Shown one piece after another: positions 19,021-36,159 of a DNA stretch of 64,000 nucleotides. Under the pieces are notes generated by a model, which saw nothing but the letters and a program-made list of their open reading frames with translations, had not been told where the DNA came from and searched no databases. The translations under genes and the position numbers were made by a program. This stretch comes from an uncultured Candidatus Poseidoniales archaeon. GTDB lineage: Archaea; Thermoplasmatota; Poseidoniia; Poseidoniales; Poseidoniaceae. How positions within the stretch are numbered: position 1 is the stretch's first letter; every line of letters begins with the position of its first letter. Where the stretch lies: positions 40,996-104,995 of the forward strand of contig CAZPME010000003.1 of NCBI GenBank assembly GCA_964587885.1, given 5' to 3'.

Positions 19021-19052
19021 TCTATTTTTTCCTCCTTATTTTTTCATTTTTT

Positions 19053-20681
19053 TCACTTACCCCAACGGCGAATCATTTGCATGAGTTCCCTCAATTCTTT
19101 TTCATCGTAGTTGCGGTTCTGGCTTTGCGCCAGCTCCACTAAGCGAGGGTCTCGAATCATCGAAAGCACCTCGGCTGGAGTTTTCAAAACCATCTGGTCT
19201 CGGGTCAAATCGTAGAATAATCTTACCTTGTTTATCAAGGCTTCACGGACTCGCATCTGGTATTTGCTTGAATCAATCTTAATTGGACGTTCACGGAATC
19301 GAGTCAAATCAAATACGTGACGCCAATTTTCCTTTTCTGGAACAACCATGATGGCAATACTAAGCAAAGCCATTAGATTGAGGACAATTAACCACTTGAG
19401 CCAAACATCTGAGGTCAAGAGTACAATGGCACCCATTGCTTCAGTAAAGGGAGCAGAAAGTGAACCTGTTACGTGACGGCTCTCGTCAAAGACAATGTAA
19501 AACTCGTCATTAAATAGGCGAACTGTATTAGAAATTTCTTCATTATCGTGCTCCATCATATCGCTAATTAATGCTATGAAAAAAGCACTATTGCCCTTCC
19601 AAGTAGTATCAGTAGCAGGATTCAAGCCATCGGCCCCACCATTCCAGCATGAACCCTTACGGTCAGCATAGAATTCCTCAACACAATGGTCGGGATGACC
19701 AGTACGCTCAGCAGTATCTCGATCCCAAAGGAAGTTGGCGAATACATCGTCATTTGCTACAAAAACGATACTGCCAGTAACACTAATCTCATCTTCGCGC
19801 TCTCCGAGTACTTTGTCGGTAGTCTTGATTCCAGGGTAATCAATTCGAATTATCAATTCAGTCTCACCTGGTCCTAATTGCCCGTTTCCAGTGTCAAGAT
19901 TTGCAGTCCCCATCTCATCTAGGAATGAAGATGTAGAAGCGTGAGCAAGAACGTAGGCATTACGACTCAATTCAGGGTCTTCTGGATCCTCAGCCTGTAG
20001 AATTTGCATCGCTGTGGTCTGGCGGAACAAGACTGGCGAGCGACACTTATGCATTTGGCTAAGTGGTGAGCCAGAAGTGGCTAACATTTCCGAGGTACAA
20101 CCAACAGTACGAGAAGCGGCATCCATATCACGAACATCACTATTTATTGAGGACAAGGCCCAAAGATTTCGCATATCGGTGCCTTGCTTATTGGTCGGCT
20201 CATTTGGTGTGTGAGTCTCGTAATGATTTAGATCGTCAAGAACTGGCGCAGTGAAATAAGATACTCCGAATTTGGCCGCCACTCTTTGAGCATTAGATGA
20301 ATCGGAAGCCAAAATTACCTTGCCACCATGCTTGGTGACGAATTCGTGAATAGCAGTAGCTTCAGCATCATCGAATGGTTTCTCTGGTGAAATCATCACC
20401 AACAGAGTTCTATGTGGTTCACGCCAATCGTTTACCAACATCGGTGTAGACATTGTATTGGCGACGGTGTAAAGTGCACCATCATCTCCCAAATCTCCTG
20501 CCATCAAATTGATTTGTTGATATTGATAATCACCCTCGGCATCAGTGATGTAAGCACTGTAAACTGGGTTCTTGTCAGCACTAACTACTACGATAAGAAC
20601 AGTAGACAATAAAAGCGCCACTACAAAGCCTACTAGAAGCCATGTCTCCAGACGAATCTTGCCCTCTTTCTCTTCTACCAT
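19053..20681 (-). CDS. DUF4350-like membrane protein (N- and C-terminal TM, ThuA/GATase-like central region)
   Basis: 542 aa with N-terminal TM (WLLVGFVVALLLSTVLIVVV), segment HRTLLVMISPEKPFDDAEATAIHEFVTKHGGKVILASD and a second TM near aa 430. Typical partner of MoxR/DUF58. Confidence 0.45.
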   Translation of the reverse strand: MVEEKEGKIRLETWLLVGFVVALLLSTVLIVVVSADKNPVYSAYITDAEGDYQYQQINLMAGDLGDDGALYTVANTMSTPMLVNDWREPHRTLLVMISPEKPFDDAEATAIHEFVTKHGGKVILASDSSNAQRVAAKFGVSYFTAPVLDDLNHYETHTPNEPTNKQGTDMRNLWALSSINSDVRDMDAASRTVGCTSEMLATSGSPLSQMHKCRSPVLFRQTTAMQILQAEDPEDPELSRNAYVLAHASTSSFLDEMGTANLDTGNGQLGPGETELIIRIDYPGIKTTDKVLGEREDEISVTGSIVFVANDDVFANFLWDRDTAERTGHPDHCVEEFYADRKGSCWNGGADGLNPATDTTWKGNSAFFIALISDMMEHDNEEISNTVRLFNDEFYIVFDESRHVTGSLSAPFTEAMGAIVLLTSDVWLKWLIVLNLMALLSIAIMVVPEKENWRHVFDLTRFRERPIKIDSSKYQMRVREALINKVRLFYDLTRDQMVLKTPAEVLSMIRDPRLVELAQSQNRNYDEKELRELMQMIRRWGK

Positions 20682-20872: not shown

Positions 20873-21856
20873 TCACCTCAAAATGGATTGGCGGCGACTG
20901 ACAAATGCAGCAAACAAAATAATCATTAATGTGTAATACATACTGAGAAAAGGAACATAACCTGTGGTAATCTCTGACCCATCATCTCCATCTCCGGTTC
21001 CCGATTGGTTAGAATCACCATTGGAATCTCCCGCACCACCACTATTTTCTGAAGATTCGCTAGACTTTATCTCAACTTCTTGGGTAGAAATTGAAGTTCC
21101 ACCACCACCATCGGAAACTACTGCGATTTCAATTGTGCATTTTTTGCTCGGATGACTAGAAGCTGGAGAAAGGGTGATTTCGGTTGTAGTCTCAGGGTTT
21201 TTGGATCCGTCGTGTTCCGAATCGACGACTAAGTTGTCTAAGTTATCAATACCGCTCAAACTCAATTGTGGGCAACCATTGGCGATTAACGTAGGCGATA
21301 CAACCTTATCGCGCATATTTCCATTATTGGTTAATATGACTTCCATAGTAGTAGTTGAGCCAGCGGTAACGGTGAAGCCGAGGTCAACTAGTTCAACTTG
21401 TAAATCAGCGATACGTGGAATTTCTATTTGCCCTTCAAGTCGTGAGTTCTGAGGGTCAACCGTAACATCGCTACCATCAATTGGGCTAGCACGAGTTGCT
21501 ATAACTGCAAAATCACCAAGGGTTCCAGCAAGATGGTCGAGTACAGTAACGTTTTCAACTTCAATTTCAGTAGTAGTATTTGATTGGGCGCCGATGTTGA
21601 TTGTTTCAGGCATATCGATTGAAGCATTCAACTCAGCTTCAAAATCCAAGTTTATCTCAATCGGAAATGGATCATTATTTTCGGCCCAAAATTCTAGAAG
21701 CAATTTACCATTTTCACTTAGTTTCCATGGACCTTCGCCAAATTCTTCTTCCCAACCAATGCTCCAACCTGTATCAGGTCCATCTTGTGCCATTGCTGGA
21801 AGTGGAAATATACTTATCAATAGCACGATTGTGAGCAATAGGTTCATGTTTTTCAT
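20873..21856 (-). CDS. secreted cell-surface protein with Ser/Gly/Asp-rich linker and PGF-CTERM-like C-terminal anchor
   Basis: Sec-type signal peptide (LLLTIVLLISIFPLPAMA|QD), ~250-aa probable β-rich domain, low-complexity SESSENSGGAGDSNGDSNQSGTGDGDD linker. C-terminus TTGYVPFLSMYYTLMIILFAAFVSRRQ. Overlaps coxM-like gene by 4 nt. Confidence 0.5.
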   Translation of the reverse strand: MKNMNLLLTIVLLISIFPLPAMAQDGPDTGWSIGWEEEFGEGPWKLSENGKLLLEFWAENNDPFPIEINLDFEAELNASIDMPETINIGAQSNTTTEIEVENVTVLDHLAGTLGDFAVIATRASPIDGSDVTVDPQNSRLEGQIEIPRIADLQVELVDLGFTVTAGSTTTMEVILTNNGNMRDKVVSPTLIANGCPQLSLSGIDNLDNLVVDSEHDGSKNPETTTEITLSPASSHPSKKCTIEIAVVSDGGGGTSISTQEVEIKSSESSENSGGAGDSNGDSNQSGTGDGDDGSEITTGYVPFLSMYYTLMIILFAAFVSRRQSILR

Positions 21857-22848
21857 ATGTATTCCCCACTATTCATTTGTCGTAGTGCTCGCTGACACAA
21901 AACCTTGGTCATCTTCTTCCGGTAATTAGGGGGGAAAGCGGTATTATTCACAGGCTTAACGGTCATTTGTATCGCTTCAGATAAAGAAATAATGCTTTTC
22001 TCCCCTTCCCAGCCTTGATTCATTACAGAAGCGACTTCGGTTTCATGAAGGCGCGGGATTGATTCAAGGGCAGTGGTTGCGACTCGTAATTCTGCAAGGC
22101 TGCCATCGGCATTTTTCCGCCACGCTACTGCGACCCCAGCCTCGGGAAAATCCCAAGACTCGCGTAGACTTAATTTTTGATACGAACCATGCCACTGGTC
22201 GGCGTCTTCAGGCAAAGTAACCTTGACCACCATTTCACCCCGTTGCAAGACATTACGAGTGATGCCATCAAGTTGAAAAAACTTGCTTATCGGCATTTGT
22301 CTCTCACCTTCGGGACCAGCCAAATGGATTGTTGCATTCAGTACCATTAATGTCGGTGCAATATCAGCTTGGTAAGTGGCGACACATAATTCGTTTTGAT
22401 TTGGAATAACTCGGCAATCAGCCGATGTTCCGCAATCACATTTGAGGCACCAGTCTATACTGGAACGCCAATCCTCTCCTTGATTAAACCAAAAACATCG
22501 AGTGTCGAGGCAAATATTACCACCCAAAGTTGCGTTATTGCGAATTAGACTACTGGCTACTTGACCAGCAGCAGAGGCAATCAACGGATGAGTCTCATCC
22601 GCTTGCGAAATTGTAGAAAGGCGTACCATTGCACCGATTTCAGTTGCGCTATTCACCGCCAAATCGGCGACATTGGAAAGCGAGATAACATCGTTTTTGG
22701 GATTCAAATGCCATTTGTAATTAGGCAACAAATCGGTTCCCCCCGCAATCCAATCGCTATCCTTGCCTTGAGAAAAAAGGTCTGCGGAGATTTGCACCGC
22801 TTCAGCAACTGTGGTCGGTGAGTGGAGATTGAATGGTGGACTGCGCAT
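21853..22848 (-). CDS. molybdopterin dehydrogenase FAD-binding (medium) subunit, CoxM/XdhB-like
   Basis: AGGTDLLP...KWH... and ATLGGNI motifs of the CO-dehydrogenase flavoprotein family. 331 aa. Confidence 0.75.
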   Translation of the reverse strand: MRSPPFNLHSPTTVAEAVQISADLFSQGKDSDWIAGGTDLLPNYKWHLNPKNDVISLSNVADLAVNSATEIGAMVRLSTISQADETHPLIASAAGQVASSLIRNNATLGGNICLDTRCFWFNQGEDWRSSIDWCLKCDCGTSADCRVIPNQNELCVATYQADIAPTLMVLNATIHLAGPEGERQMPISKFFQLDGITRNVLQRGEMVVKVTLPEDADQWHGSYQKLSLRESWDFPEAGVAVAWRKNADGSLAELRVATTALESIPRLHETEVASVMNQGWEGEKSIISLSEAIQMTVKPVNNTAFPPNYRKKMTKVLCQRALRQMNSGEYI

Positions 22849-22850
22849 TT

Positions 22851-25616
22851 CTATTCCTCTCTATGTCGTCTTTCAATATGCTTCCATGCACTTCCTGCAG
22901 GACGAGGGGATGAGAGGTAATCCTCACTTGGAGTAACCGAAATTACCCAATCATCCACTTGCGATTCTGGAACTTCAGTAGGCTCAAGCCCGAATAAAGC
23001 ACCATTGTGATAGGGTGCACGTTCAGAATTGAGTTTACGCTTGTTGTCGCGTTGTCCATGGGAGTTAGCACGCGCCACCAATTTATCCTGCAATTCGCTA
23101 TATTGAAGGCTTGGATTAGGCAATTGCAATGGTCCTGTTAACCCCTCCGACTTTACCTTGCGCTCAATTTTCTTGTACAATCGATCTGGTGTAACCGGTA
23201 ACTCATCAACTCTTATTCCACTGGCGTCATATATCGCATTTACAACCGCTGGAAGGATTGGTAGTAGAGGGCCTTCGCCGGCTTCTTTTGCACCAAATGG
23301 ACCCTCTGGATCATTTGATTCTACGATAATAGGGGTAACTTTGGGCATCTCATGTATTGTCGGGATTTTGTATTCTAACAAGTTCGCATTACGCAGATTT
23401 CCACTCCGCCCATAGACCATCTCTTCACTGAGAACTTGCCCCATCCCCATATGACACGAACCGATGATTTGGCCTTCGACTGCAAGCGGGTTGAGCGCCC
23501 GACCACAATCATGTGCAGCCCAAACTTCAACCACTTTAGTTTGACCAGTTTCAACATCAACCTCAACTTCAGCAACATAGGCCGAAAAAGAATAGGCTGG
23601 TGCTAGACCTGCAGCCGCACCTTTGTGAGTATTGCCCATCGGGGGGGTGCGATATGCACCGGATGAAACCAAGGCACCGATATCTTCCTGTGCCTTGTGT
23701 AGTGCTTCTAGATACGATACTCCTACCGCAGGGTCATTGCGAGCATAGATTCGACGGTCGCCGATAACCAATGAATCACTTGAAGCAGAAGTGATTTCGG
23801 CTGCAGCCTCGATTAATGATGAACGTATTTTCATCGCCGCCGAAATCGCTGCGTTGGCATTCATGAAAGTGACACGACTACTGTATGAGCCAAGGTCAAC
23901 TGGAGAAGTATCACTTTCGCGACTTCGAACTCGAATCATCTCAATTGGAAGCCCGAGCACTTCGGCAACACTCTGGGCAACTACAGTATCAGAGCCTTGA
24001 CCAATGTCGGCAGCTCCAGTGTGAACGGTAACTCCACCATCCATGTCTATTTTCAAATGAACAGTCGCATGAGGGAATTTATTCGGGTCCCAATGAATGG
24101 GTAATCCACTACCTGAAATGAAAAATCCACACCCAATACCGATACCTCTACCCAAAGGCATTTTGCGAAATTTGTCTTCCCAACCACTGGCCTCTCGAAC
24201 CCTTTCCAAACACTCTCGCATTCCAATACTTGTGATGCGAAATCCGGTAATCGTAGCCGAATGTGGAGGAAGGAGATTAGCCAAACGAAAGGCAATAGGA
24301 TCAACCTGTAATTGGTCACAAATATCATCGATGCCTGATTCGACTGCACAGCGGCTATTTACCGCACCATGACCGCGCATTGCCCCAGAAGCGGGCTTAT
24401 TTGTCCACACTCTGGCACCAGTATAGTGGAAGGCTCCCAATTCATAGGGAGCGGTATGCAATACTCCATTGTAATATGTGGTTACATGTCCGAAACTTGC
24501 AAAGGCCCCGCCATCAATTAGAGCATCGGTCTCAATTCCGCATAACCGACCTTCAACATCCGCGTGTAAGACCATTTCAAGGCGCGAAGGATGACGACCC
24601 CGATTGGTCCAAAATACTTCTTCGCGATCGAATGTAATGCGAACCGGTTTACCAGTTTCACGCGCCATTATTGCGGCACACATTTCGTGAGGGAATGGAT
24701 CGGATTTTCCACCAAATCCACCACCGACGAAAGTCCGAAAAACATTGATTTGATGCATAGGGATCTCAAGCACATCAGCGAGCGAACGATGCACATAATG
24801 TGGCACTTGTTGAGGTGTATACAGAGTCAAACGACCATTAGGGTCCCAATAACCAACCACTGCATGAGGTTCGGTAAAACCATGATTTACTCCTGCAAAT
24901 TTCCATTTCGCACTAGAAGTGGCCGCTGAATCGCGCATCGAATCAATGCGACCGAATTCCTGGAACACTCGCTTTTGCACATTCGACTCACCGATGTGAT
25001 ACTTACCTCGGTCATGGATTGGATTGGCACTATCCTCAATGGCCTTCGTCATATTGTGAACCGGATCCAAGAGTTCATAATCGACTTTGATTAGGCGTAA
25101 TGCTTCGAGGGCTGTCGCCTCATCAACCGCCGCTACTGCGGCGACTAAATCGCCGACATGACGCACTTTCTCAACCGCTAATGCGTGCTCATCTTTAGTG
25201 ACTGGCAACACTCCGAAGACCTTGTCATGACCTTGCCCCGTTAGTACATATTCAACACCGTCTAACGCTTTGGCAGCAGTAGTATCAATGCTACGAATTT
25301 TGGCATAGTGATGCGGGGAGCGTAGAATACGGCCAATCAATTCACCAGAAAGGCGGATGTCGTCACCGTATTGGGCTTGTCCGGTTACTTTCCAGCGACC
25401 ATCAACCAAAGGAATGCGGCGACCAATACTACTGCTGGTCAATAATTCATCATGGCGATTTGGTCCTCGTGGTTGAGCGCGGTTTCCACCTTGACTCTCT
25501 GGGATGTAATCCATGTCACGCAATTCACTGAACTGCCTACTACCCCCACTACCCGGCTTTTTGAACGGAAGTTTACCGGGTTGTTGGCGATACCCTTTCA
25601 TCTGTTCATTGCCCAT
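22851..25616 (-). CDS. molybdopterin-binding large subunit, xanthine dehydrogenase/CoxL family (aldehyde oxidase a/b hammerhead + MoCo domains)
   Basis: 921 aa. The region aligning to the CODH active-site loop reads GAMRGHG, which is form-II/XDH-like and not VAYRCSFR. N-terminal ~60 aa is low complexity. Confidence 0.8.
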   Translation of the reverse strand: MGNEQMKGYRQQPGKLPFKKPGSGGSRQFSELRDMDYIPESQGGNRAQPRGPNRHDELLTSSSIGRRIPLVDGRWKVTGQAQYGDDIRLSGELIGRILRSPHHYAKIRSIDTTAAKALDGVEYVLTGQGHDKVFGVLPVTKDEHALAVEKVRHVGDLVAAVAAVDEATALEALRLIKVDYELLDPVHNMTKAIEDSANPIHDRGKYHIGESNVQKRVFQEFGRIDSMRDSAATSSAKWKFAGVNHGFTEPHAVVGYWDPNGRLTLYTPQQVPHYVHRSLADVLEIPMHQINVFRTFVGGGFGGKSDPFPHEMCAAIMARETGKPVRITFDREEVFWTNRGRHPSRLEMVLHADVEGRLCGIETDALIDGGAFASFGHVTTYYNGVLHTAPYELGAFHYTGARVWTNKPASGAMRGHGAVNSRCAVESGIDDICDQLQVDPIAFRLANLLPPHSATITGFRITSIGMRECLERVREASGWEDKFRKMPLGRGIGIGCGFFISGSGLPIHWDPNKFPHATVHLKIDMDGGVTVHTGAADIGQGSDTVVAQSVAEVLGLPIEMIRVRSRESDTSPVDLGSYSSRVTFMNANAAISAAMKIRSSLIEAAAEITSASSDSLVIGDRRIYARNDPAVGVSYLEALHKAQEDIGALVSSGAYRTPPMGNTHKGAAAGLAPAYSFSAYVAEVEVDVETGQTKVVEVWAAHDCGRALNPLAVEGQIIGSCHMGMGQVLSEEMVYGRSGNLRNANLLEYKIPTIHEMPKVTPIIVESNDPEGPFGAKEAGEGPLLPILPAVVNAIYDASGIRVDELPVTPDRLYKKIERKVKSEGLTGPLQLPNPSLQYSELQDKLVARANSHGQRDNKRKLNSERAPYHNGALFGLEPTEVPESQVDDWVISVTPSEDYLSSPRPAGSAWKHIERRHREE

Positions 25617-25625
25617 TGCTACACC

Positions 25626-26204
25626 TCAGATATTCTCGCCGCCAAACCCGGTATGAGGATCTGCCTGAGCAGTAGTTCCATCCTTGCGAGCATTCTCATC
25701 ACGAAGTAATTCTGCGGCAGCTTGCACTGATTCTACTATTTGCTGATATCCAGTACAGCGACATAAATTACCATCTAATGCTGATTTCACTTCTGCATCG
25801 GTTGGGGAATCATTCAAATCGAGTAGAGCAGAACTGGAGAGCAGGAATCCAGGGGTGCAAAAACCACATTGGCTCCCACCGCATTCAGTAAACATTTCTT
25901 GAATCGGATGAAGGTGATGGCCCTCAGCAAGTCCTTCAACAGTAGTTATTTCTTGGCCTGCAACCTGGCCGGCCAAGGTAAGACAAGAAAGGCGTGGAAC
26001 GCCATCGATTAGAACAGTACAGCAGCCGCAAGTCCCCATATCACATCCTCTCTTTACTCCCAATGTACCAACTTGGTCTCGCAAAACATCGAGCAATACT
26101 GCACATGATTCAATCTCAATTGCTAGAGCCTGACCATTGACCAAAGCCGACCAATTGTTCCTAGGTGCAGAGGGTATCATCGAAACGTGTTCAACTCCAA
26201 CCAT
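25626..26204 (-). CDS. [2Fe-2S]-binding small subunit, CoxS/XdhC-small family
   Basis: CDMGTCGCCTV (ferredoxin-type) and CGFCTPGF ... NLCRCTGYQQI cluster motifs. Confidence 0.85.
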   Translation of the reverse strand: MVGVEHVSMIPSAPRNNWSALVNGQALAIEIESCAVLLDVLRDQVGTLGVKRGCDMGTCGCCTVLIDGVPRLSCLTLAGQVAGQEITTVEGLAEGHHLHPIQEMFTECGGSQCGFCTPGFLLSSSALLDLNDSPTDAEVKSALDGNLCRCTGYQQIVESVQAAAELLRDENARKDGTTAQADPHTGFGGENI

Positions 26205-26344
26205 TCGCCCTCACCATATCCTTCGTAGAGAATACCCTTCTTCATGCTTCGCCCTAGACCCTTCGGGTCTATTGGGGTGAAGTGGTGATTTTCAAAGACC
26301 CGTTGAATTATGCCTCACAATATGTATTTCGCTCGTTGCTTTAA

Positions 26345-29300
26345 GTGCCTAATGCACTAGGGCTTCACATGAGTCAGCCGCCACCAAGAAAATCTTCTGC
26401 ACCTCCTAGAGAGAATACATCAGCAGAAACCATAGTAATTGGTAATAGCAACAATATGCCGATTAGTGGGGCTCAGCGTCTTGGTCAATTGTGGCTTTGG
26501 GGGGTCGCGATTCTCGCGATTTGGAGTGGTTTGTTTACCATCGCATACTCACAAGGAGATTCCAATAATCGCTTTGCATTGCTCGGCCTAGGCGGGATAA
26601 TATCTGGCCTAGTATTCTTCGTCAGCGTCGATATGCAAAGGCGCAAGCATGGGGTCATTACCGATCTTCACGATTACATGATGGCGATGAGTTTCTTCTT
26701 TACCGCAGCCGGAATGTTCTGGGGAGTTCGCTATGCAGTTGCTCTGTTCTCAAGTGTTGATTTCACCTACTTCATCCACCCCGATCGTCCTTTCACTGGG
26801 ATGTCTTCGGTTGGATGGTACCCTAATGCCAATGCAATCTATGCTCAGGCCGCAGCTGCGGCATTATTAGCAGCATTGCAATGGCTATATCTGAAACCCA
26901 TGCAAAATGACGAACGCAACACAACTACAGTGAGTTGGTTTGTGGTCTGTATTACCCCTTTTGCACTTCTATTGGTTGGATTGGGAACTTGGGTCGATTG
27001 GTCGGATGGCTTTGTCAGTTACGAAATCGGCGTTGCCATGGTAACCCTCAGTTCAATTGCAATGATGTTATCAGTTGAAAGTAATAACAATCTCGTCTTT
27101 GCAATTACTGCCAATGTCGCTTCATTCATGACACTGATTTACGAAATTGTCCACTCCCCACCCAGCGGTTCTTCAAGTGGGGGGGCATTGTCCCTAATGG
27201 CCTTCATTATCATCGCCCAAGGACTACTGGCGGCCTCACCAAAACTGGAACGAAAAATGGTCGAAAAAGCCAGCATGGGACTCGTTTTCGCCGCTCTAAT
27301 TGCGATGATTTTTGCTGTTTCAACAGAGATGACTCTGCATCTTGGCCCGTCTAAATTTTCCGCAACCGATTCATATCTCACATTGCCAACGATGATTTGG
27401 ATCACTCTTCTTGTCGCCTATTTACCCGCAGTCCACGATAATCGAATCCCGTGGATGCCGATCGGATTGGCTGGTGCATTGGTTCTCTTACCCGACCCCT
27501 CAAACATTATTCCATGGAGCATTTGCTTGGTGATGATTCCATACATGTTATGGAATAAAAAGACCCGGGAATGGGTGGCGAACTGGACCTTTGGATTATT
27601 TGCCGCTTCATTCTTTGTTGTCGGCTGGCTAACATGGATACGTAGTGTCGAAGGAGATGCTGATACGTGGACGGCATTCCCTCAATATTTTGATCTGATT
27701 ATCGCCATTGTCATTATCGCAGTAGGTGAATTAGCCTCAAGGAATGCTAAACTCAACCGCAATGTATTCCGCTTTGCACTCTTTTGTGTAGTCGGTTCAC
27801 CGGCAACAATGATTGCTAATGATTCATTGATGCCATGGTTGGTCGCCTTGTACCTTCTCGGCTCGGTTATCATTGAACAGCAAGAGTACGATGAGAATGG
27901 TGGTTTCGCCGCACGTAAAGATATGTCACTCACTATGGCAACCAGTTTGACCTTAACTGTAATCTTGGCTATGTTAGGGCGTCTTTCTTTGAGTGACACC
28001 CCTTTAGCAGCTATTGAAAGTCAATTGATGGGCTTCAATCTCCTATTAGCGATAATTGCTGTGACCTATTTCGTTGTCGGCAGTAGAATGTCTCATGCTG
28101 AATTTGACCTCGGAATAATGCTGAAAATGATATCCAAAAATGCTGCCCAATCTGCTTCATTTGACCCTACCACTGGAACGTGGGTTGTCGATGAAAAAGA
28201 ATTCGACGAAATCGAAGAGGCCTTGGAATCATCTTGGGGTCAAATCGCTCGTTTCAGCCTCTTTGGTCCTCTAATCTTGTTCACAACGGCTATGGTGTCG
28301 ATACAAAACTCAGAATTAAGCGACAATCCATTTTTGATGCTTCTTTTTGCTATTCCTGTTGGCGTACTGGTAAGAGAGGTCTTACAAGTCGAAGGAGCAG
28401 GAAGTCGTGAACGGGCTGTCGGCGTATGGTCGATGGTGGCGATTTCATTACCTTTGAGTTTCAAAATGGATGATATCGGATTCTCAACTGCAGCAATATT
28501 TTTCGACCTGATAATGATTAACGGTCCGTTAATTGTCCACTTTGTATTACTGAAGCGTGGATTAGCAGAAAAGCAAGAGTTGTCGAAAAGTGCTGATGAT
28601 TGGACCTTACTGGGTATGGTCGCACTCGGAATGCTAGATGCAACAGGAGGTTTGGCACTAACAGTGATGTTTGCTATCGTATTGTGGCGTGCTATTTTGC
28701 ACCGTAGCAAAGTAGCATTGTATGCCCTGCCATTGATGTGGCTATTTTTCCCATCACGACTTGACAAATCTGATAATATCTTGAATCTAATATTGTCCGA
28801 ATTAGGTTCTTTTGGTGACACCTTGCTAGGAACTGAGAGGATACTGGAAATACCCTACGTGCGTTATGCTGGATTGATGTGGCTTATCTATGCTGCATTG
28901 GCGCTCGGTAAATCGGCAGGGGATGTGCAACTGCGAAAGCGTAGCGATGAGGAAATTGAGACATTACCATTCATCTATCCGGGAATCTTCCTGTTTTTGG
29001 GCCTTGATCTACTCCTCGTGCAAGACGCATGGTTGCTGTGTGCCGTCACGACGATATTGCTACTATTCGGTTGGAGTTCTGGCCGTATGGAAGGTTTCTC
29101 TTTCGCACCACCAGCCTACTTCTTTTCATTCCTTATCGGCTTTGATTCTGAGGGTTATTCCGGTTTTGAATTGTTTAGTATTAGTTGCTTTGGCTCTGGT
29201 TTAGTGAGTTTTGCCTTATGGATTGCCGCAAACAAAGGATTGCTCTATCGGTGGGCGAAAGAAACCATAACTGCTGCTGAATTAAATGAAGGAGTAGATA

Positions 29301-30388
29301 CTAATTTACTTGGAATGGAAAAATTACCATCACTACTTCGGTGTGCAACACAAGAAGGACGTGAGAAATTAGAAAATTACCTCCGACTATGGGGAATGGC
29401 TCTGCTGTTATTCTCGTTTGATGAAGTATATGGCCTGTCTACTTTATTTGTCGCAATTTGGGTGACCTGGGAGGCTTGGGTGAAGCAAGAAAGAACCCTA
29501 TTTTTACTAACACCAATGCTTCATGCAATTGCATTATGGAATATCGAGCGAGTGGCGGAAATCCAAGGTAATGAATTGGCGGGATGGCTGCTGATTCTTG
29601 AAGGTGCGATTCTATCGTATCTGTCAGCGATAAAATGGTATCCCGACTGGAATTGGTCAGAAGATGGGGAAGAATACTGGCACTGGAACGACATGCTGGG
29701 AATATTTGGAGCGACCTACGGGGTCGTAGGAATACTATGGGCGCTCTGGGATTTGACCGATATCGGCGCTTCGCTACTAATTATCCTCTATTGTGGTATG
29801 CAGGCCGCCGCCGATTTCGAAACTACCTGGCGCAGAATAACCAGTCTTGTTGGGACTTCATTGGGGACATTTTTGGTGTTTTTCTCCGATGTCGGCACAA
29901 CTTTTGCCGGCATCTCCTTGATTGTTGGTGGCCTAGCAGCATTTGCTCAAGCCGTTCTCTACTTCCGAGTTTGGGGAATTGAAGAAGGTACTCTGAAACT
30001 CGAGACTGTTTCCACCCAAGTATCCACAATAACTGCAGAAAGTAGTGAGGAAGAAATAGAGGTAAAAGAAAAGATGGAGCCGGTAATTGAAAGCTCACAA
30101 GTAGAAGATGATGATACTGATGAAATTGAAGATTTCCTTGATTCTTTAGAGGATGAAACGAGCGGAGATGGCGATTTAGACGAAGGTCAAGATGATGATG
30201 TGGCTATTCCAACTGCAATCCTAAATCGAGTCACAACCTCGCAAGGTTTCGACATTGAATTACCACCACAAGTAATGCAAAATATTCTTCAAACACTAGA
30301 AAATACCGATACTGAAGGATTCCAGCCGGTTATTGGATTTGACCAATTCGGCCGAATAATTATGAATTTTGAGCCGGCCGATTCGTAA
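26345..30388 (+). CDS. giant polytopic integral membrane protein (~30+ predicted TM helices) with acidic C-terminal tail; family unknown
   Basis: 1347-aa ORF that is hydrophobic along nearly its whole length with no recognisable soluble domain. Last ~130 aa acidic (EDDDTDEIEDFLDSLEDETSGDGDLDEGQDDD). Confidence 0.55.
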   Translation: MPNALGLHMSQPPPRKSSAPPRENTSAETIVIGNSNNMPISGAQRLGQLWLWGVAILAIWSGLFTIAYSQGDSNNRFALLGLGGIISGLVFFVSVDMQRRKHGVITDLHDYMMAMSFFFTAAGMFWGVRYAVALFSSVDFTYFIHPDRPFTGMSSVGWYPNANAIYAQAAAAALLAALQWLYLKPMQNDERNTTTVSWFVVCITPFALLLVGLGTWVDWSDGFVSYEIGVAMVTLSSIAMMLSVESNNNLVFAITANVASFMTLIYEIVHSPPSGSSSGGALSLMAFIIIAQGLLAASPKLERKMVEKASMGLVFAALIAMIFAVSTEMTLHLGPSKFSATDSYLTLPTMIWITLLVAYLPAVHDNRIPWMPIGLAGALVLLPDPSNIIPWSICLVMIPYMLWNKKTREWVANWTFGLFAASFFVVGWLTWIRSVEGDADTWTAFPQYFDLIIAIVIIAVGELASRNAKLNRNVFRFALFCVVGSPATMIANDSLMPWLVALYLLGSVIIEQQEYDENGGFAARKDMSLTMATSLTLTVILAMLGRLSLSDTPLAAIESQLMGFNLLLAIIAVTYFVVGSRMSHAEFDLGIMLKMISKNAAQSASFDPTTGTWVVDEKEFDEIEEALESSWGQIARFSLFGPLILFTTAMVSIQNSELSDNPFLMLLFAIPVGVLVREVLQVEGAGSRERAVGVWSMVAISLPLSFKMDDIGFSTAAIFFDLIMINGPLIVHFVLLKRGLAEKQELSKSADDWTLLGMVALGMLDATGGLALTVMFAIVLWRAILHRSKVALYALPLMWLFFPSRLDKSDNILNLILSELGSFGDTLLGTERILEIPYVRYAGLMWLIYAALALGKSAGDVQLRKRSDEEIETLPFIYPGIFLFLGLDLLLVQDAWLLCAVTTILLLFGWSSGRMEGFSFAPPAYFFSFLIGFDSEGYSGFELFSISCFGSGLVSFALWIAANKGLLYRWAKETITAAELNEGVDTNLLGMEKLPSLLRCATQEGREKLENYLRLWGMALLLFSFDEVYGLSTLFVAIWVTWEAWVKQERTLFLLTPMLHAIALWNIERVAEIQGNELAGWLLILEGAILSYLSAIKWYPDWNWSEDGEEYWHWNDMLGIFGATYGVVGILWALWDLTDIGASLLIILYCGMQAAADFETTWRRITSLVGTSLGTFLVFFSDVGTTFAGISLIVGGLAAFAQAVLYFRVWGIEEGTLKLETVSTQVSTITAESSEEEIEVKEKMEPVIESSQVEDDDTDEIEDFLDSLEDETSGDGDLDEGQDDDVAIPTAILNRVTTSQGFDIELPPQVMQNILQTLENTDTEGFQPVIGFDQFGRIIMNFEPADS

Positions 30389-30455: not shown

Positions 30456-30998
30456 ATGAGCGAAGCCAGCGACTTGATGGTATGGATTGACCTTGAGATG
30501 ACTGGTCTCAATATTGAGGACTGCTCAATTATTGAAATCGCCACCATCATCACCGATGGAGAACTAAATATTGTAGCAAGTGGACCAAACCTCGCCATCA
30601 AGGTCGCCGATGAATTACTCGATGCTATGGATGAATGGAATACAACTCATCACAATCGCAGCGGCTTGGTTTCTCGGGTCCAAGAAAGCGAGATAGACCA
30701 TGCTGAAGCTGAACGATTAACCCTGGAGTTCATCTCCCAGTATGTAGAGCCGGGGATGGCTCCATTATGCGGAAATAGTGTTTGGAACGACCGCAAATTC
30801 ATGGAAAAAGAAATGCCGGCGGTTACCGATTACCTCCACTATAGGATGGTAGATGTGTCGTCGATCAAAGAATTAGCCGACCGGTGGTATCCTGAAGTTC
30901 CCCGCTATCGCAAAAAAGCATCACATCTCGCTCTTGACGATATCGTTGAATCGGTCGAAGAATTACGCTACTATCGGCAAAAAATCTTCACTAAATAG
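30456..30998 (+). CDS. orn: oligoribonuclease (DEDDh 3'-5' exonuclease)
   Basis: LMVWIDLEMTGL ... CGNSVWNDRKFMEKEMPAVTDYLHYRMVDVSSIKELADRWYPE closely matches bacterial/eukaryotic Orn. Start set at ATG 30456 (181 aa), not the TTG ORF start at 30369 which overlaps the upstream gene. Confidence 0.8.
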   Translation: MSEASDLMVWIDLEMTGLNIEDCSIIEIATIITDGELNIVASGPNLAIKVADELLDAMDEWNTTHHNRSGLVSRVQESEIDHAEAERLTLEFISQYVEPGMAPLCGNSVWNDRKFMEKEMPAVTDYLHYRMVDVSSIKELADRWYPEVPRYRKKASHLALDDIVESVEELRYYRQKIFTK

Positions 30999-31842
30999 AC
31001 TGTCGCCAAGTGCCCTGAGTTGGATCTACTCCTTTGCTAGAGGCGATAATCTCGGCAATTACAGAAATAGCAATTTCGGCTGGTGTTTCAGCACCGAGAG
31101 CAATTCCAATTGGACAGGTTACTTGTTCTATCGAAGATTGAGAAATCCCATTGTCTAAACAGGTCTTGGAAAAACTCTGCCATTTGCTCCGACTACCGAT
31201 TACTCCAATGCGAGCAGGATGTGGCATTTCATCAGATAATTCCAACAATGATTGTAATCGTTCCTCATCTTCCTTCCAATCATGACCCAAGAGCAAAATA
31301 TCGCTGAAACGAGAAAGACTGGAAAAATCTTCATCAGCAAAAAATGATTTGACCGAACCGGCGTGTAGTTCACGAGCATTAGGGTACGCAAGTTCGCCAG
31401 CATATTCTTCGCGGGTATCATGTACGCTGTGATCCCAACCCATGCCATGAGAGATACTTGCAATTGCTGCGGCAACATGACCACCACCCATTAGCAAGAT
31501 GTGAGGTGTTGGTTCGATTACTTCTAGAGACACGGTAAGACGACCCCCACAGAGACTATCCAAGGGTGTGACTTCATAGCCCTTAGCCCCTTTATTTAAG
31601 CCAAATGTGATGACTTCACCTCCGACAGTGGAGGTAGTGAGTAATTCTTGCAATCGGGAGATTATGGTCATCTCCAATCCTGCACCCCCTACTGTCCCAC
31701 AGCGGTCATTTTTCGAGGTCAAGGCTAATCTCGCCCCCGGCTTACCCGGAACTGAACCTGAGGCTGATAGAACCGTCGCCGAAGCGACCCGCAAGCCCAT
31801 GTTAAGGCGACTACCAATCCATTCAAGGACGCGTTGGGTCAT
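30991..31842 (-). CDS. XdhC/CoxI-family molybdenum cofactor insertion/sulfuration accessory protein
   Basis: Rossmann-like core LLMGGGHVAAAIASISHGMGWDHSVHDTREEYA typical of XdhC. Confidence 0.65.
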   Translation of the reverse strand: MTQRVLEWIGSRLNMGLRVASATVLSASGSVPGKPGARLALTSKNDRCGTVGGAGLEMTIISRLQELLTTSTVGGEVITFGLNKGAKGYEVTPLDSLCGGRLTVSLEVIEPTPHILLMGGGHVAAAIASISHGMGWDHSVHDTREEYAGELAYPNARELHAGSVKSFFADEDFSSLSRFSDILLLGHDWKEDEERLQSLLELSDEMPHPARIGVIGSRSKWQSFSKTCLDNGISQSSIEQVTCPIGIALGAETPAEIAISVIAEIIASSKGVDPTQGTWRQSI

Positions 31843-31858
31843 GAAACGGCCACTCCGA

Positions 31859-32458
31859 CTACCGAGATAAACCGTCGCTTGAAGCAGCCCAGCGGGCTAA
31901 TTCAGCAATGTCTTCTGGGGTATCGATATTAATGTGCAGAAACATATCTTCGACTTGAATCCGAGATGGATTTACCAATTCGTGTAATGGTCGATTGCGA
32001 GTGGCCGACATTATTGCAATAATCTCATCCTTGCCAATTAGCAAAGGATGTGCCCCTCTACCATCTTGACTTGGGCAAGTACAAGACTCGGCTGAAAGAA
32101 TTTTTTGCAAAGTCGAAACCGACCATCCCGGTCTATCAATGGGTACAATTAGGGCCGATTCGGAAAGTCGACCATTTTCTTCCCCTATTGCAAGGAGTCC
32201 ATCTTGAACCGAGCCTGTTCGACCATCCTCGGGACGATTATTGATGACTACATTGCATTCGGGCGCTACGGACAAGCATGACAACGCTAACTCAGCACGA
32301 GTGACTATGATGATAGGATGACAAGACTGACTGGCAAGACGCTGGGAGATGATACTGAGCAATGATTGCCCCTCAACTTCTAGTAAGGCTTTGGGCTGGC
32401 CGAGACGTTCACTAGCACCAGCAGCCAATATTATGGCGGGAATTGTATTCTTGCCCAT
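31859..32458 (-). CDS. molybdenum cofactor cytidylyl/guanylyl-transferase (MobA/MocA-like)
   Basis: N-terminal IPAIILAAGASERLGQPKALLEV, the MobA-like NTP transferase motif. 199 aa. Confidence 0.7.
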   Translation of the reverse strand: MGKNTIPAIILAAGASERLGQPKALLEVEGQSLLSIISQRLASQSCHPIIIVTRAELALSCLSVAPECNVVINNRPEDGRTGSVQDGLLAIGEENGRLSESALIVPIDRPGWSVSTLQKILSAESCTCPSQDGRGAHPLLIGKDEIIAIMSATRNRPLHELVNPSRIQVEDMFLHINIDTPEDIAELARWAASSDGLSR

Positions 32459-32469
32459 TTCGGCACCCG

Positions 32470-33618
32470 CTAAAGGCCACGGGTAATCTCGCGTCCGATA
32501 ATCATCCTCTGGACTTGACTACTACCCTCATAAATCTGGATTACTTTTGCACCGCGCATCAATCGAGCAACCGGATATTCCTCAGAGTAACCATAGCCGC
32601 CGAATACTTGTACCGCATCGGTAGTAACCTCCATCGCAATATCGGCGGCAAAGCGTTTGGCGTGGGCAGCAGCTTCGGTATTTTTCTCTCCTTTATCTGC
32701 CAAAAATGCCGCCTTCCAAGTTAGTAAACGAGCGGCTTCAATTTTTGTCTTCATGTCAGTCAACATGAATTGCATGGCTTGATGCTGATGCAACTTCTTA
32801 CCAAAGGTCATACGCTCGTCGGAATATTGCATGGAATGGTCAAAGGCGGACTGGGCTAATCCAACTGCATGAGCGGCAATATTTGGACGACTCATATCAA
32901 AGGCAGACATGGCATTGAACCATCCGGCACCGTCGCCACCACCGACCATATTGCTGGCTGGGATTCTAACATCATTGAAAGTAACCGCTCGGGTATCGGA
33001 ACAGCGCTGACCCATATTCGATTCCTTCTTACCTAATTCGACCCCATCTCGGTCGGACTCAACAATGAATCCAGTCATACCTTTGTAGCCGGCTTCAGGA
33101 TCGGTATATCCCAAAACAAAGAACCAATCTGCATGTCCCGCTCCAGTGATGAACATTTTTTGCCCATTTATGATATATTCATCACCATCTGCGGTAGCCT
33201 GAGTTTTGATACCTTGAACATCAGAACCAGCGCCAGGCTCAGTTACAGCATAAGATGCCAGTTTACCCTGTTCAGCAACACCTCGCAAAAATTTGTCTTT
33301 TTGCTCAGGCGTTCCTCCAGTAATTATCGGTGCACATGCTAATGCTGTAGCATAAGCAGCGGTAGCAAAACCTGGGTCGCCCCAACCAAGTGCTTCGTTG
33401 ACAATTACCTCTTCCATACTCCCTAATCCTGCCCCACCATACTCCTCTGGGATGTGGAGATTTAACAATCCGAGTTCATTGGCCGCCTTGATTGTCTCAA
33501 GCGGATAGGTTGAATTCGCATCCCAATCTGCCGCATGAGGTCTAATTTCTGCATTAGCAAATTCCATCGCCAAATCACGCAACATCTCCTGCATTTCTGA
33601 TAACGACAGGTCGACCAT
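32470..33618 (-). CDS. acyl-CoA dehydrogenase
   Basis: 382 aa. Typical ACAD segments (YAVTEPGAGSDV..., GGYGYSEEYPVARLMRGAKVIQIYEGSSQVQRMII). Confidence 0.85.
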   Translation of the reverse strand: MVDLSLSEMQEMLRDLAMEFANAEIRPHAADWDANSTYPLETIKAANELGLLNLHIPEEYGGAGLGSMEEVIVNEALGWGDPGFATAAYATALACAPIITGGTPEQKDKFLRGVAEQGKLASYAVTEPGAGSDVQGIKTQATADGDEYIINGQKMFITGAGHADWFFVLGYTDPEAGYKGMTGFIVESDRDGVELGKKESNMGQRCSDTRAVTFNDVRIPASNMVGGGDGAGWFNAMSAFDMSRPNIAAHAVGLAQSAFDHSMQYSDERMTFGKKLHQHQAMQFMLTDMKTKIEAARLLTWKAAFLADKGEKNTEAAAHAKRFAADIAMEVTTDAVQVFGGYGYSEEYPVARLMRGAKVIQIYEGSSQVQRMIIGREITRGL

Positions 33619-35580: not shown

Positions 35581-36159
35581 ATGGCGGATGATGTAAAATA
35601 TAGAAGATTGTCAGTTGATGGCACATTGAATGCAGGATTAAGTATTATTATAGTGACGTTTCTCATAATGTTGCTATGTGGATCTTTTGTTGCATTGGCC
35701 TTTATGTTACAGGAAAACACGGAAAGTGCGACTGAATTTACATGCAATTCTGGTGAAACAGTCGAAGCTGAATGGGTTCAAGATGGCACAAGTGATTGTG
35801 TGGATGGTTCAGATGAAACTGAGGCTGCGGAGGAGGAAATAGCGGGTGAGAAAACTTTCGGTTTCCTTTCATATATCATGTTTGGAATTGCCGGTGTAGT
35901 ATTGGTTTCAGGAATATTGGGGTTATCAACAAAAATATTAGCGGATTCAATAAGTGCAGGTTTAGCACTACATGCTGCTAATGAGGCACTTAATCCAGAT
36001 ATTGAAGTCAAGGTTCTTCCTACTCAAGTGGCCCCAGTTCAAGTTGCTCAATCTGCACAGGCGACTACGCCACAACAGCATCAACAACCTACTGCTCAGC
36101 AACATACTCAGCAGGTAGTACACCAGCCGTTGCCACCCCCTCAAAATCCGCATCAATGA
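35581..36159 (+). CDS. membrane protein with LDL-receptor class A-like Ca2+-binding motif and Q/P-rich tail
   Basis: Two TMs flank the external segment FTCNSGETVEAEWVQDGTSDCVDGSDE, which matches the C-terminal half of the LDLa consensus (W.CDG..DC.DGSDE). C-terminal QATTPQQHQQPTAQQHTQQ low complexity. Confidence 0.5.
   Translation: MADDVKYRRLSVDGTLNAGLSIIIVTFLIMLLCGSFVALAFMLQENTESATEFTCNSGETVEAEWVQDGTSDCVDGSDETEAAEEEIAGEKTFGFLSYIMFGIAGVVLVSGILGLSTKILADSISAGLALHAANEALNPDIEVKVLPTQVAPVQVAQSAQATTPQQHQQPTAQQHTQQVVHQPLPPPQNPHQ

What the first reader, a model, noticed from the sequence alone, without database searches (positions are those of the whole stretch)
26345..30388. 1347-aa nearly all-transmembrane giant protein between molybdoenzyme structural and maturation genes
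A single ORF predicted to be hydrophobic helices along ~1200 aa, with more than 30 TM segments, no recognisable soluble or catalytic domain, and an acidic cytoplasmic-looking tail. It sits between coxS/L/M-like genes (divergent promoter at 26205..26344) and the xdhC/mocA maturation genes. Proteins of this architecture do not match the common large transporter families by eye.
Basis: seen in the sequence. Interest (0 to 1): 0.65.

Follow-up and report, generated by a model that had tools for sequence, protein, structure and literature searches.

The report
Orphan giant archaeal membrane protein
This is a real, intact gene for a roughly 1,340-residue protein with about 36-38 membrane helices, conserved in the abundant marine archaea Poseidoniales; it matches no known protein family or solved fold, and its position next to molybdenum-enzyme genes reflects inherited gene order, not a shared function.

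Summary
The ORF at 26345..30388 (+) is real. Its likely start is the ATG at 26369, giving 1339 aa. Collinear full-length homologues of 1250-1390 aa occur in at least 216 species-level genomes, essentially all Poseidoniales (Marine Group II) MAGs, so it is not a fusion or assembly artefact.

AlphaFold2 plus the positive-inside rule give an N-in/C-in protein. About 38 membrane-embedded helices span aa 41-1209. Three of these pairs are short-helix hairpins. A cytoplasmic acidic linker follows (30 D/E against 3 K/R), then a conserved C-terminal mini-domain of about 50 aa.

Nothing known matches: Pfam, NCBIfam, PADLOC, PHROGs, a PDB sequence profile, a profile search of 1.84 billion proteins, and Foldseek against PDB with two models, one of them confident (pTM 0.83). 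No internal repeats were found.

The Mo-hydroxylase neighbourhood is a synteny block of part of the family. Most relatives have a subtilase between coxS and this gene, an oligoribonuclease gene lies between it and xdhC, and divergent branches have unrelated neighbours.

The parts
26340..26345 (+). TATA-like hexamer TTTAAG, 24 nt upstream of the ATG at 26369. It would fit a leaderless archaeal transcript. This is inference only.
   Evidence: Sequence read. The start at M9 matches the 1339-aa P0001.
26369..30388 (+). Coding sequence of the giant membrane protein: 1339 aa from the ATG, stop at 30386-30388. The mechanical ORF starts at the GTG at 26345 and gives 1347 aa. Residue numbers in this report use the 1347-aa numbering.
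26465..28144 (+). N-terminal membrane module, aa 41-600, about 18 membrane helices. It is the best conserved part of the family and a compact domain in the model.
   Evidence: AlphaFold2 with 54 sequences gives pLDDT 86.6 and pTM 0.83. Most family-wide invariant residues lie here. The divergent branch aligns best here.
27437..27592 (+). Signature core, aa 365-416: R367-x-P-W-M-P-I-G-L-A, a short helix, the LPDPSN tip, a second short helix (W391, Y400), then R408-x-W-V-A-N-x-T. It is a helical hairpin with both ends on the cytoplasmic side.
   Evidence: Helices of 12 and 16 residues. K/R-rich flanks. R367, P369, P372, W391, Y400, R408, W410 and V411 are invariant across 22-54 divergent members. 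This motif was the pattern that recovered 216 genomes.
28091..28252 (+). Long cytoplasmic loop, aa 583-636, with a small beta hairpin and invariant E586/D588. It links the N module to the middle module.
28253..29233 (+). Middle membrane module, aa 637-963, about 12 membrane helices. Conserved residues include E678, R690 and D721.
28586..28699 (+). Second short-helix hairpin, aa 748-785, with tip L-D765-x-x-G768-G769, followed by H786-R787 on the cytoplasmic side.
   Evidence: Two 16-residue helices. D765 and G769 are invariant family-wide. Hairpin tips are the most conserved class of positions.
29234..29350 (+). Second long cytoplasmic loop, aa 964-1002. It has low model confidence.
29351..29971 (+). 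C-terminal membrane module, aa 1003-1209, 8 membrane helices, with the invariant W1162-R-R1164 motif at a cytoplasmic helix start.
29972..30214 (+). Acidic linker, aa 1210-1290 (30 D/E, 3 K/R). Its sequence and length vary between relatives. It is probably disordered and is predicted to be cytoplasmic.
30215..30385 (+). Conserved C-terminal mini-domain, aa 1291-1347. The sequence pattern suggests beta-alpha-beta-beta. Within the search's reach it occurs only at the end of this family.
   Evidence: Alignment A6. G1336 is invariant family-wide. The profile search returned only short proteins, and the two checked are frameshift fragments of this gene.

Best explanation
The gene encodes the founding example of an uncharacterised family of giant polytopic membrane proteins, inherited vertically and centred on Poseidoniales.

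Shown here:
- It is a single polypeptide with both termini in the cytoplasm.
- About 38 membrane-embedded helices fall into three modules (aa 41-600, 637-963, 1003-1209).
- Extramembrane loops are very short.
- A cytoplasmic acidic tether carries a small conserved terminal domain.

Inferred, with low confidence: it acts inside the membrane as a transporter or translocase. The working site would be built from the conserved short-helix hairpins, the first flanked by invariant R367 and R408 and the second tipped by D765/G769, together with buried or interfacial R129, D721, E678/R690 and W-R-R1164. The invariant arginines and tryptophans at the cytoplasmic leaflet would suit an anionic, possibly phosphate-bearing or lipid-linked, substrate entering from the cytoplasmic side. 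The tethered C-terminal domain would regulate the protein or recruit a cytoplasmic partner.

It is transcribed on its own and has no functional link to the neighbouring Mo-hydroxylase genes.
For: - Real and conserved: 32 close hits, 21 of them full length. A profile search of 1.84 billion representatives found 202 hits, all full-length-like or fragments. 216 species genomes carry it.
- Topology: K/R-rich and D/E-rich loops alternate regularly along 38 helices, with N-in and C-in.
- Models: the full membrane region gives pLDDT 80 and pTM 0.59. The N module gives pLDDT 86.6 and pTM 0.83.
- Conservation is highest inside the membrane: 0.54 for helices against 0.42-0.45 for loops, with hairpin tips at 0.60. 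This pattern is usual for transporters, channels and intramembrane enzymes rather than for anchors of extramembrane domains.
- Family-wide invariant residues are R129, P205, W216, G293, A296, S310, W352, R367, P369, P372, W391, Y400, R408, W410, V411, D765, G769, W1162, R1164 and G1336.
- Short helix-loop-helix hairpins of 12+16, 16+16 and 14+16 residues have both flanks on the cytoplasmic side. From general knowledge, such elements form substrate sites in many channels and carriers.
- No gene partner is conserved across the family.
Against: - No homology or fold match supports any transport mechanism.
- The model coordinates could not be inspected, so no pore, cavity or domain packing was seen.
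- The short-helix pairs could be two short full spans rather than re-entrant hairpins.
- The best Foldseek matches are soluble alpha-solenoids and designed toroids (TM-score 0.2-0.38). That fits a hairpin array and would suit a scaffold equally well.
- Invariant Arg, Trp and Asp residues would fit an intramembrane enzyme just as well.
- There are no expression or substrate data.
Confidence: 0.4

Rival explanations
1. The protein is a membrane scaffold or envelope organiser. A large array of helical hairpins would shape or stiffen the membrane, or dock surface proteins, rather than move a substrate.
For: - Foldseek's best matches for both models are solenoid, TPR and designed circular-repeat proteins. 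That points to a regular hairpin array rather than a classical transporter bundle.
- In several unrelated contexts the adjacent gene encodes a large exported protein: an S8 subtilase in 46/71 loci, a 1261-aa CARDB protein and an LVIVD protein, and a 1997-aa He_PIG protein.
Against: - Extramembrane loops are tiny. The outer loops are at most about 33 aa and are the least conserved class of positions. That leaves little surface for docking external proteins.
- Conservation peaks within the membrane at polar and charged residues.
- Poseidoniales genomes carry many surface-protein genes, so adjacency may be chance. The subtilase flips strand between lineages and is absent in the window.
- TM-scores to solenoids are only 0.2-0.38.
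Confidence: 0.2
2. The protein is an intramembrane enzyme acting on a lipid-linked substrate, for example a glycan or lipid polymerase, transferase or flippase working on polyprenyl phosphate. It would be analogous to GT-C or Wzy-type proteins but not homologous to them.
For: - Invariant Arg residues at the cytoplasmic interface, many invariant Trp and Tyr, and the conserved acidic residues D721, D765 and E678 with H786 would suit binding of a phosphate-sugar-lipid substrate.
- Very large polytopic proteins in archaea are often GT-C-like (general knowledge).
Against: - No member hits any GT-C, Wzy, PMT, STT3 or DUF2298 model, even at E<=1.
- No GT-C structure appears among the listed Foldseek hits.
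- There is no large extracytoplasmic loop or soluble domain.
- The first outer loop is 4 residues long and has no invariant acidic motif.
- No glycosylation genes are linked.
Confidence: 0.2
3. The protein is an accessory of the adjacent Mo-hydroxylase, serving as its membrane anchor, electron acceptor or substrate importer.
For: - The gene lies between coxSLM-like genes and xdhC/mocA-like genes in the window.
- The wider block (cox genes, then this gene, then orn, xdhC, mocA, an acyl-CoA dehydrogenase gene and a Na/Ca exchanger gene) is kept in 47/71 loci.
Against: - The block also contains unrelated genes: oligoribonuclease, subtilase, Na/Ca exchanger and aquaporin. It therefore looks like conserved gene order, not an operon.
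- The giant gene is on the opposite strand to both Mo gene groups.
- Twenty-two of 71 loci, and the divergent branches, have no Mo genes within 7-8 kb.
- There is no conserved Cys or His pair for haem or Fe-S, and no MHYT-type domain.
Confidence: 0.04
4. The long ORF is an artefact: several genes joined by an assembly or frameshift error, or a non-coding open frame.
For: None was found. The only split versions are in long-read assemblies where neighbouring genes are split too.
Against: - Collinear homologues covering 96-99% of the query, at 27-99% identity, come from many independent assemblies.
- No stand-alone modules appear among the 202 profile hits, other than fragments cut at contig ends.
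- Both AlphaFold models are confident.
Confidence: 0.01

Closest known systems
Lineage-specific hypothetical protein families of Poseidoniales (modules 32 and 71 in Méheust et al. 2022, PMC9258230)
   Same: That study reports about 199 protein families tied to Poseidoniales, in lineage-specific modules whose unannotated families are enriched in transmembrane helices. This family fits that description.
   Different: In the passages I read, the paper does not single out or describe this protein. I did not check its supplementary family tables. The paper notes that the hypothetical proteins in its lineage-specific modules are shorter than core-family proteins, whereas this one is exceptionally long.
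Piezo mechanosensitive channels (38 TM helices per subunit; general knowledge)
   Same: The number of membrane helices in one chain is similar, and both are largely built from arrays of helices with short loops.
   Different: No repeated 4-helix units are detectable. No Piezo structure is among the Foldseek hits listed, and none reaches E<=1e-3. There is no cap or extracellular domain. Piezo is eukaryotic.
GT-C glycosyltransferases and related archaeal giants (AglB/STT3, PMT, ArnT, DUF2298)
   Same: Both are large polytopic archaeal membrane proteins, and both have conserved Arg and acidic residues near the membrane interface.
   Different: No HMM match at any threshold. No large extracytoplasmic loop or domain. 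No fold match.
Antiporter-like subunits of Mrp / complex I (MrpA/D, NuoL/M/N)
   Same: Both are long chains of membrane helices with broken or short helices and conserved charged residues inside the membrane. Méheust et al. report that Mrp appears absent from Poseidoniales.
   Different: No Proton_antipo_M match or any other HMM match. No fold match. No internal duplication.
Membrane proteins of carboxidotroph cox clusters (CoxB, CoxC, CoxH, CoxK; MHYT-domain proteins; recalled from memory)
   Same: They are membrane proteins encoded beside Mo-hydroxylase (cox) structural genes.
   Different: No MHYT or other domain match. The protein is several times larger. The linkage to cox genes is not conserved across the family.

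Membership tests
Any curated protein family (Pfam-A, NCBIfam, PADLOC, PHROGs), including the major transporter superfamilies | A match to the family HMM at or above its curated cut-off | tested here: not met
   The window protein's only hit is sub-threshold: DUF1515, 19 bits against a 22.2-bit cut-off. Scanning 22 divergent members at E<=1 found no family hit by more than one member. NCBIfam gave none, PADLOC none, and PHROGs only E=0.037 on the acidic tail.
Any protein with a solved structure | Sequence-profile or fold similarity to a PDB chain | tested here: not met
GT-C glycosyltransferases | A large extracytoplasmic loop or domain, and an acidic motif in the first outer loop | tested here: not met
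   The first outer loop is 4 residues (QGDS) and has no invariant acidic residue. The largest outer loops are 26-33 aa.
Piezo-like repeat-built giants | Tandem repeated helical units | tested here: not met
   hhalign of eight alignment blocks against each other gave significant scores only where blocks overlap. The best non-overlapping pair had probability 12%. This is a sequence-level test only; structural repeats could not be examined without coordinates.
Mo-hydroxylase (cox/xdh) accessory membrane proteins | Linkage to Mo-hydroxylase genes conserved across the family | tested here: not met
   coxS lies within the upstream flank in 47/71 loci but is directly adjacent in only 2. Twenty-two of 71 loci have neither coxS nor the subtilase upstream. 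The divergent branches have unrelated neighbours.
Membrane redox anchors (cytochrome b-like or Fe-S) | Conserved His pairs or Cys clusters as cofactor ligands | tested here: not met
   The family-wide invariant residues contain no Cys and no His. Only H786 is nearly invariant.
Transporters and channels in general (functional class, not a family) | A membrane-embedded translocation path lined by conserved polar residues | tested here: inconclusive
   Conserved charged and polar residues lie in or at the ends of helices, and conservation peaks in the membrane.
Single intact gene (as opposed to an artefactual fusion) | Collinear full-length orthologues in independent assemblies | tested here: met

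The most novel reading that the evidence does not exclude
The protein founds a previously undescribed fold class: a single-chain array of about 38 membrane helices with cytoplasm-facing hairpins, found in many Poseidoniales species. It would carry out a lineage-defining membrane function, such as a new type of transporter or flippase, or a membrane-organising machine, in one of the ocean's most abundant archaeal groups.
Probability: 0.45. Interest if true: 0.75.

Novelty: categorically new. Interest (0 to 1): 0.6.

Why it matters
Poseidoniales are among the most abundant planktonic archaea and have never been cultured. Their biology is therefore inferred almost entirely from annotated genes.

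A protein that takes up 4 kb of a streamlined genome is clearly under strong selection. It is found in hundreds of species and is conserved mainly inside the membrane. Yet it is invisible to every annotation resource tried here.

If it proves to be a new transport or membrane-organising device, it would add a new membrane-protein architecture with one of the highest helix counts known for a single prokaryotic chain. It would also point to an unrecognised aspect of how these cells interact with seawater.

The work also removes a tempting but wrong annotation, as a Mo-enzyme accessory.

Tried and rejected
- **Family scans.** Pfam, NCBIfam, PADLOC and PHROGs scans of the window protein and of up to 22 divergent members found nothing.
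- **PDB sequence profile.** The only matches were low-complexity hits to the acidic tail.
- **Profile search of 1.84 billion representatives.** It was repeated with a trimmed alignment. Only family members and fragments were found, plus one 1812-aa variant.
- **Internal repeats.** hhalign between alignment blocks found none.
- **C-terminal mini-domain.** I asked whether it occurs in other proteins. The profile search returned only short proteins. The two on long contigs that I checked are frameshift fragments of this same gene.
- **Conserved gene partner.** Three candidates were rejected. Mo genes are not family-wide. The subtilase is frequent but flips strand and is missing in the window. The radical SAM gene next to the divergent branch is convergent and has no NCBIfam name.
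- **Literature.** Searches for a description of this protein or of the Poseidoniales envelope found nothing specific.
Full report
**1. Observation**

The window contains an uninterrupted + strand ORF at 26345..30388, 1347 codons from a GTG. At about 46% GC, a random frame stays open this long with a probability near 1e-32 (my arithmetic). A 99%-identical database protein is 1339 aa. That corresponds to the ATG at 26369. This ATG lies 24 nt after a TTTAAG hexamer at 26340-26345, the spacing expected for a leaderless archaeal mRNA; that reading is inference.

The protein is leucine-, alanine- and tryptophan-rich and has few Cys or His residues.

**2. It is a real, single, conserved gene**

- A word-indexed search of 5.8 billion proteins returned 32 relatives. 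Twenty-one cover 90-99% of the query at 27-99% identity and are 1249-1389 aa long. The few that carry names are 'hypothetical protein' from Candidatus Poseidoniales or Poseidonia MAGs.
- A second group of about 1270 aa seemed at first to match only a quarter of the query. It is in fact collinear over the N module, the last about 600 residues and the C-terminal mini-domain.
- An exhaustive HMMER profile search of 1.84 billion cluster representatives found only 202 proteins at E<=1e-3. All were full-length-like or contig-end fragments. One is an 1812-aa version with a large middle insertion, on a 69% GC contig.
- A scan of one genome per GTDB species with the signature [IV]P[WYA]MP[IV]GLA found 216 genomes that encode a relative. 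The 80 best are all Poseidoniales, 'Euryarchaeota' or Thermoplasmatota MAGs, apart from one evidently contaminated bin labelled Salipiger.
- The split versions I looked up occur in long-read assemblies where neighbouring genes are split as well.

Fusion or frameshift artefact is excluded.

**3. Anatomy**

AlphaFold2 on aa 40-1210 with 22 sequences gave mean pLDDT 80 and pTM 0.59. The model is almost entirely helical, with three or four tiny beta hairpins.

I combined the model's helices with alignment-averaged charge. K/R-rich and D/E-rich loops alternate regularly. This gives a cytoplasmic N terminus, 38 membrane-embedded helices between aa 41 and 1209, and a cytoplasmic C terminus. About 69% of those residues sit in the helices.

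Two long cytoplasmic loops (583-636 and 964-1002) divide the chain into three modules. The N module (aa 40-600), modelled alone with 54 sequences, is a confident compact domain with pLDDT 86.6 and pTM 0.83.

Three pairs of unusually short helices have both flanks on the cytoplasmic side:
- 370-381 / 388-403
- 748-763 / 770-785
- 877-890 / 897-912

They are either re-entrant hairpins or pairs of very short spans.

After the last helix comes an acidic segment (aa 1210-1290: 30 D/E, 3 K/R). Its sequence varies between relatives. It is followed by a conserved mini-domain of about 50 aa, whose sequence pattern suggests beta-alpha-beta-beta.

**4. Conservation**

Across 22 members down to 18% identity, the invariant residues are R129, P205, W216, G293, A296, S310, W352, R367, P369, P372, W391, Y400, R408, W410, V411, D765, G769, W1162, R1164 and G1336. 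Eight of these lie in the first hairpin and its arginine flanks. D765 and G769 form the tip of the second hairpin.

Helices are more conserved than loops (0.54 against 0.42-0.45). The hairpin tips are the most conserved positions of all, at 0.60.

There is no conserved Cys and no conserved His pair.

**5. Comparison with everything known**

- No Pfam, NCBIfam, PADLOC or PHROGs family is matched by the window protein or by any of 22 divergent members, even at E<=1.
- A family profile against all PDB sequences matches only through the profile's C-terminal end, mainly the acidic tail.
- hhalign between eight alignment blocks shows no internal duplication.
- Foldseek against 350,542 PDB chains gave no hit at E<=1e-3 for either model.
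- The best-ranked Foldseek entries are soluble helical-repeat proteins: karyopherins, LGN TPR, VPS35, and designed circular tandem repeats and toroids. TM-scores are 0.1-0.38. No membrane protein is listed.

This says the protein is built from regular antiparallel helical hairpins, and nothing more.

**6. Genomic context**

In the window the gene lies between two groups of Mo-related genes, both on the opposite strand.
- Upstream are coxS-, coxL- and coxM-like genes (25626-26204, 22851-25616, 21853-22848).
- Downstream are xdhC (30991-31842) and a MocA-like cytidylyltransferase gene (31859-32458).
- An oligoribonuclease gene lies directly downstream on the same strand (30456-30998; 260 bits against a cut-off of 106).

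Relatives keep a long block: coxMLS, then a variable stretch, then the giant gene, orn, xdhC, mocA, an acyl-CoA dehydrogenase gene and a Na/Ca exchanger gene.

Counts from the informative loci:

| Feature | Loci |
|---|---|
| coxS within the upstream flank | 47 of 71 |
| coxS directly adjacent | 2 of 71 (the window's closest relatives) |
| S8 subtilase immediately upstream | 46 of 71 (26 same strand, 20 opposite) |
| Neither coxS nor the subtilase upstream | 22 of 71 |

Other sublineages and the divergent branches have unrelated neighbours. These include aldehyde dehydrogenase, radical SAM, CARDB, an RNA polymerase subunit, an FkbM methyltransferase, an esterase, MscS, DUF2071 and a cold-shock protein.

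This sample is biased towards the relatives most similar to the query. Even so, it shows that the Mo neighbourhood is inherited gene order in part of the family and not an operon. No gene partner is conserved family-wide.

**7. Interpretation**

*Shown:* this is an intact, vertically inherited, order-wide family of giant N-in/C-in membrane proteins. It has three modules, conserved intramembrane hairpins and a tethered cytoplasmic mini-domain. It has no detectable relatives.

*Inferred:* conservation is concentrated within the membrane. It falls on arginines, tryptophans and a few acidic residues at or near the cytoplasmic leaflet, and on short-helix hairpins. Extramembrane surfaces are minimal. 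I therefore favour a transporter or translocase working on a solute or lipid-linked, probably anionic, substrate, regulated through the C-terminal domain (confidence about 0.4).

The rivals, in order:
- A membrane scaffold or envelope organiser (0.2). It is supported by the solenoid-like fold hits and by recurrent neighbouring genes for large exported proteins.
- A non-homologous analogue of lipid-linked-substrate enzymes (0.2).
- A Mo-enzyme accessory, which is very unlikely (0.04).
- An artefact, which is excluded (0.01).

**8. Novelty and score**

The sequences are already in public databases as hypothetical proteins. Lineage-specific hypothetical families of Poseidoniales have been noted collectively (PMC9258230). 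I found no description of this protein, and no family, domain or fold to file it under.

Interest is 0.6. The protein is a striking, well-supported orphan in an ecologically dominant, uncultured group, but no function is established yet.

Noticed in passing
window 30456-30998 (+): The gene directly downstream of the giant gene is a clear oligoribonuclease (Orn, NCBIfam PRK05359, 260 bits against a cut-off of 106). Its likely start is the ATG at 30456, 67 nt after the giant gene's stop, so the mechanical TTG ORF that overlaps the giant gene is too long. It follows the giant gene in 53 of 68 related loci.
   Followed up: partly
window 21853-26204 (-), 17851-20681 (-), 32470-33618 (-): The large subunit of the 'cox-like' Mo enzyme scores best against 4-hydroxybenzoyl-CoA reductase alpha (818 bits, below the 994-bit cut-off) and xanthine dehydrogenase, and much lower against aerobic CO dehydrogenase. 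A simple motif search found no CODH active-site loop. A MoxR AAA+ gene and a gene with a weak, sub-threshold DUF4350 match lie on one side of the Mo genes, and an acyl-CoA dehydrogenase gene on the other.
   Followed up: partly
window 35581-36159 (+): A 192-aa ORF carries an LDL-receptor class A domain (PF00057, E=1.3e-8). This is an unusual domain for an archaeon.
   Followed up: no
related loci, e.g. L004:6047-7945 (+), L003:5876-7843 (-): A subtilase (S8) gene of about 630-690 aa lies immediately upstream of the giant gene in 46 of 71 informative loci, 26 on the same strand and 20 on the opposite strand. It is missing from the window and from L010 and L032. No S8 gene occurs anywhere in the 64-kb window.
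   Followed up: partly
L058:2649-6434 (-), L072:11682-17675 (-), L022:3920-5929 (-): In sublineages without the Mo/subtilase context, the giant gene still has large predicted surface proteins nearby: a 1261-aa CARDB protein, a 1997-aa He_PIG Ig-repeat protein and an LVIVD-repeat protein. This may be coincidence in genomes rich in surface-protein genes.
   Followed up: no
L090:5381-10819 (+): An 1812-aa homologue on a 69% GC contig carries a large insertion of extra hydrophobic sequence after the N module. The family therefore reaches at least one lineage whose base composition differs sharply from typical Poseidoniales (median 45% GC across the loci).
   Followed up: partly
L077 (CAXQWT010000088.1): A contig in a MAG labelled Salipiger bermudensis carries the complete Poseidoniales gene order (coxMLS, subtilase, giant gene, orn). 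This almost certainly reflects bin contamination or mislabelling.
   Followed up: no
L092, L093 (pilon-polished long-read contigs of 265 kb and 1.14 Mb): These assemblies split the giant gene, the subtilase, mocA and the acyl-CoA dehydrogenase gene into pieces by frameshifts. The short 'C-terminal domain only' proteins I looked up came from these assemblies. The 1.14-Mb contig may be a near-complete Poseidoniales chromosome.
   Followed up: partly
window 28240-28821 (-) and 27682-27999 (-): Antisense ORFs of 193 and 105 aa lie inside the giant gene. They are probably spurious, given how strongly the sense frame is conserved.
   Followed up: no
window 20873-21856 (-): A 327-aa ORF downstream of coxM has no Pfam match and only a weak 'choice-of-anchor T' similarity (E=5e-4, far below the cut-off). 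A gene of similar size occupies the same position in relatives (L004:1-995).
   Followed up: no
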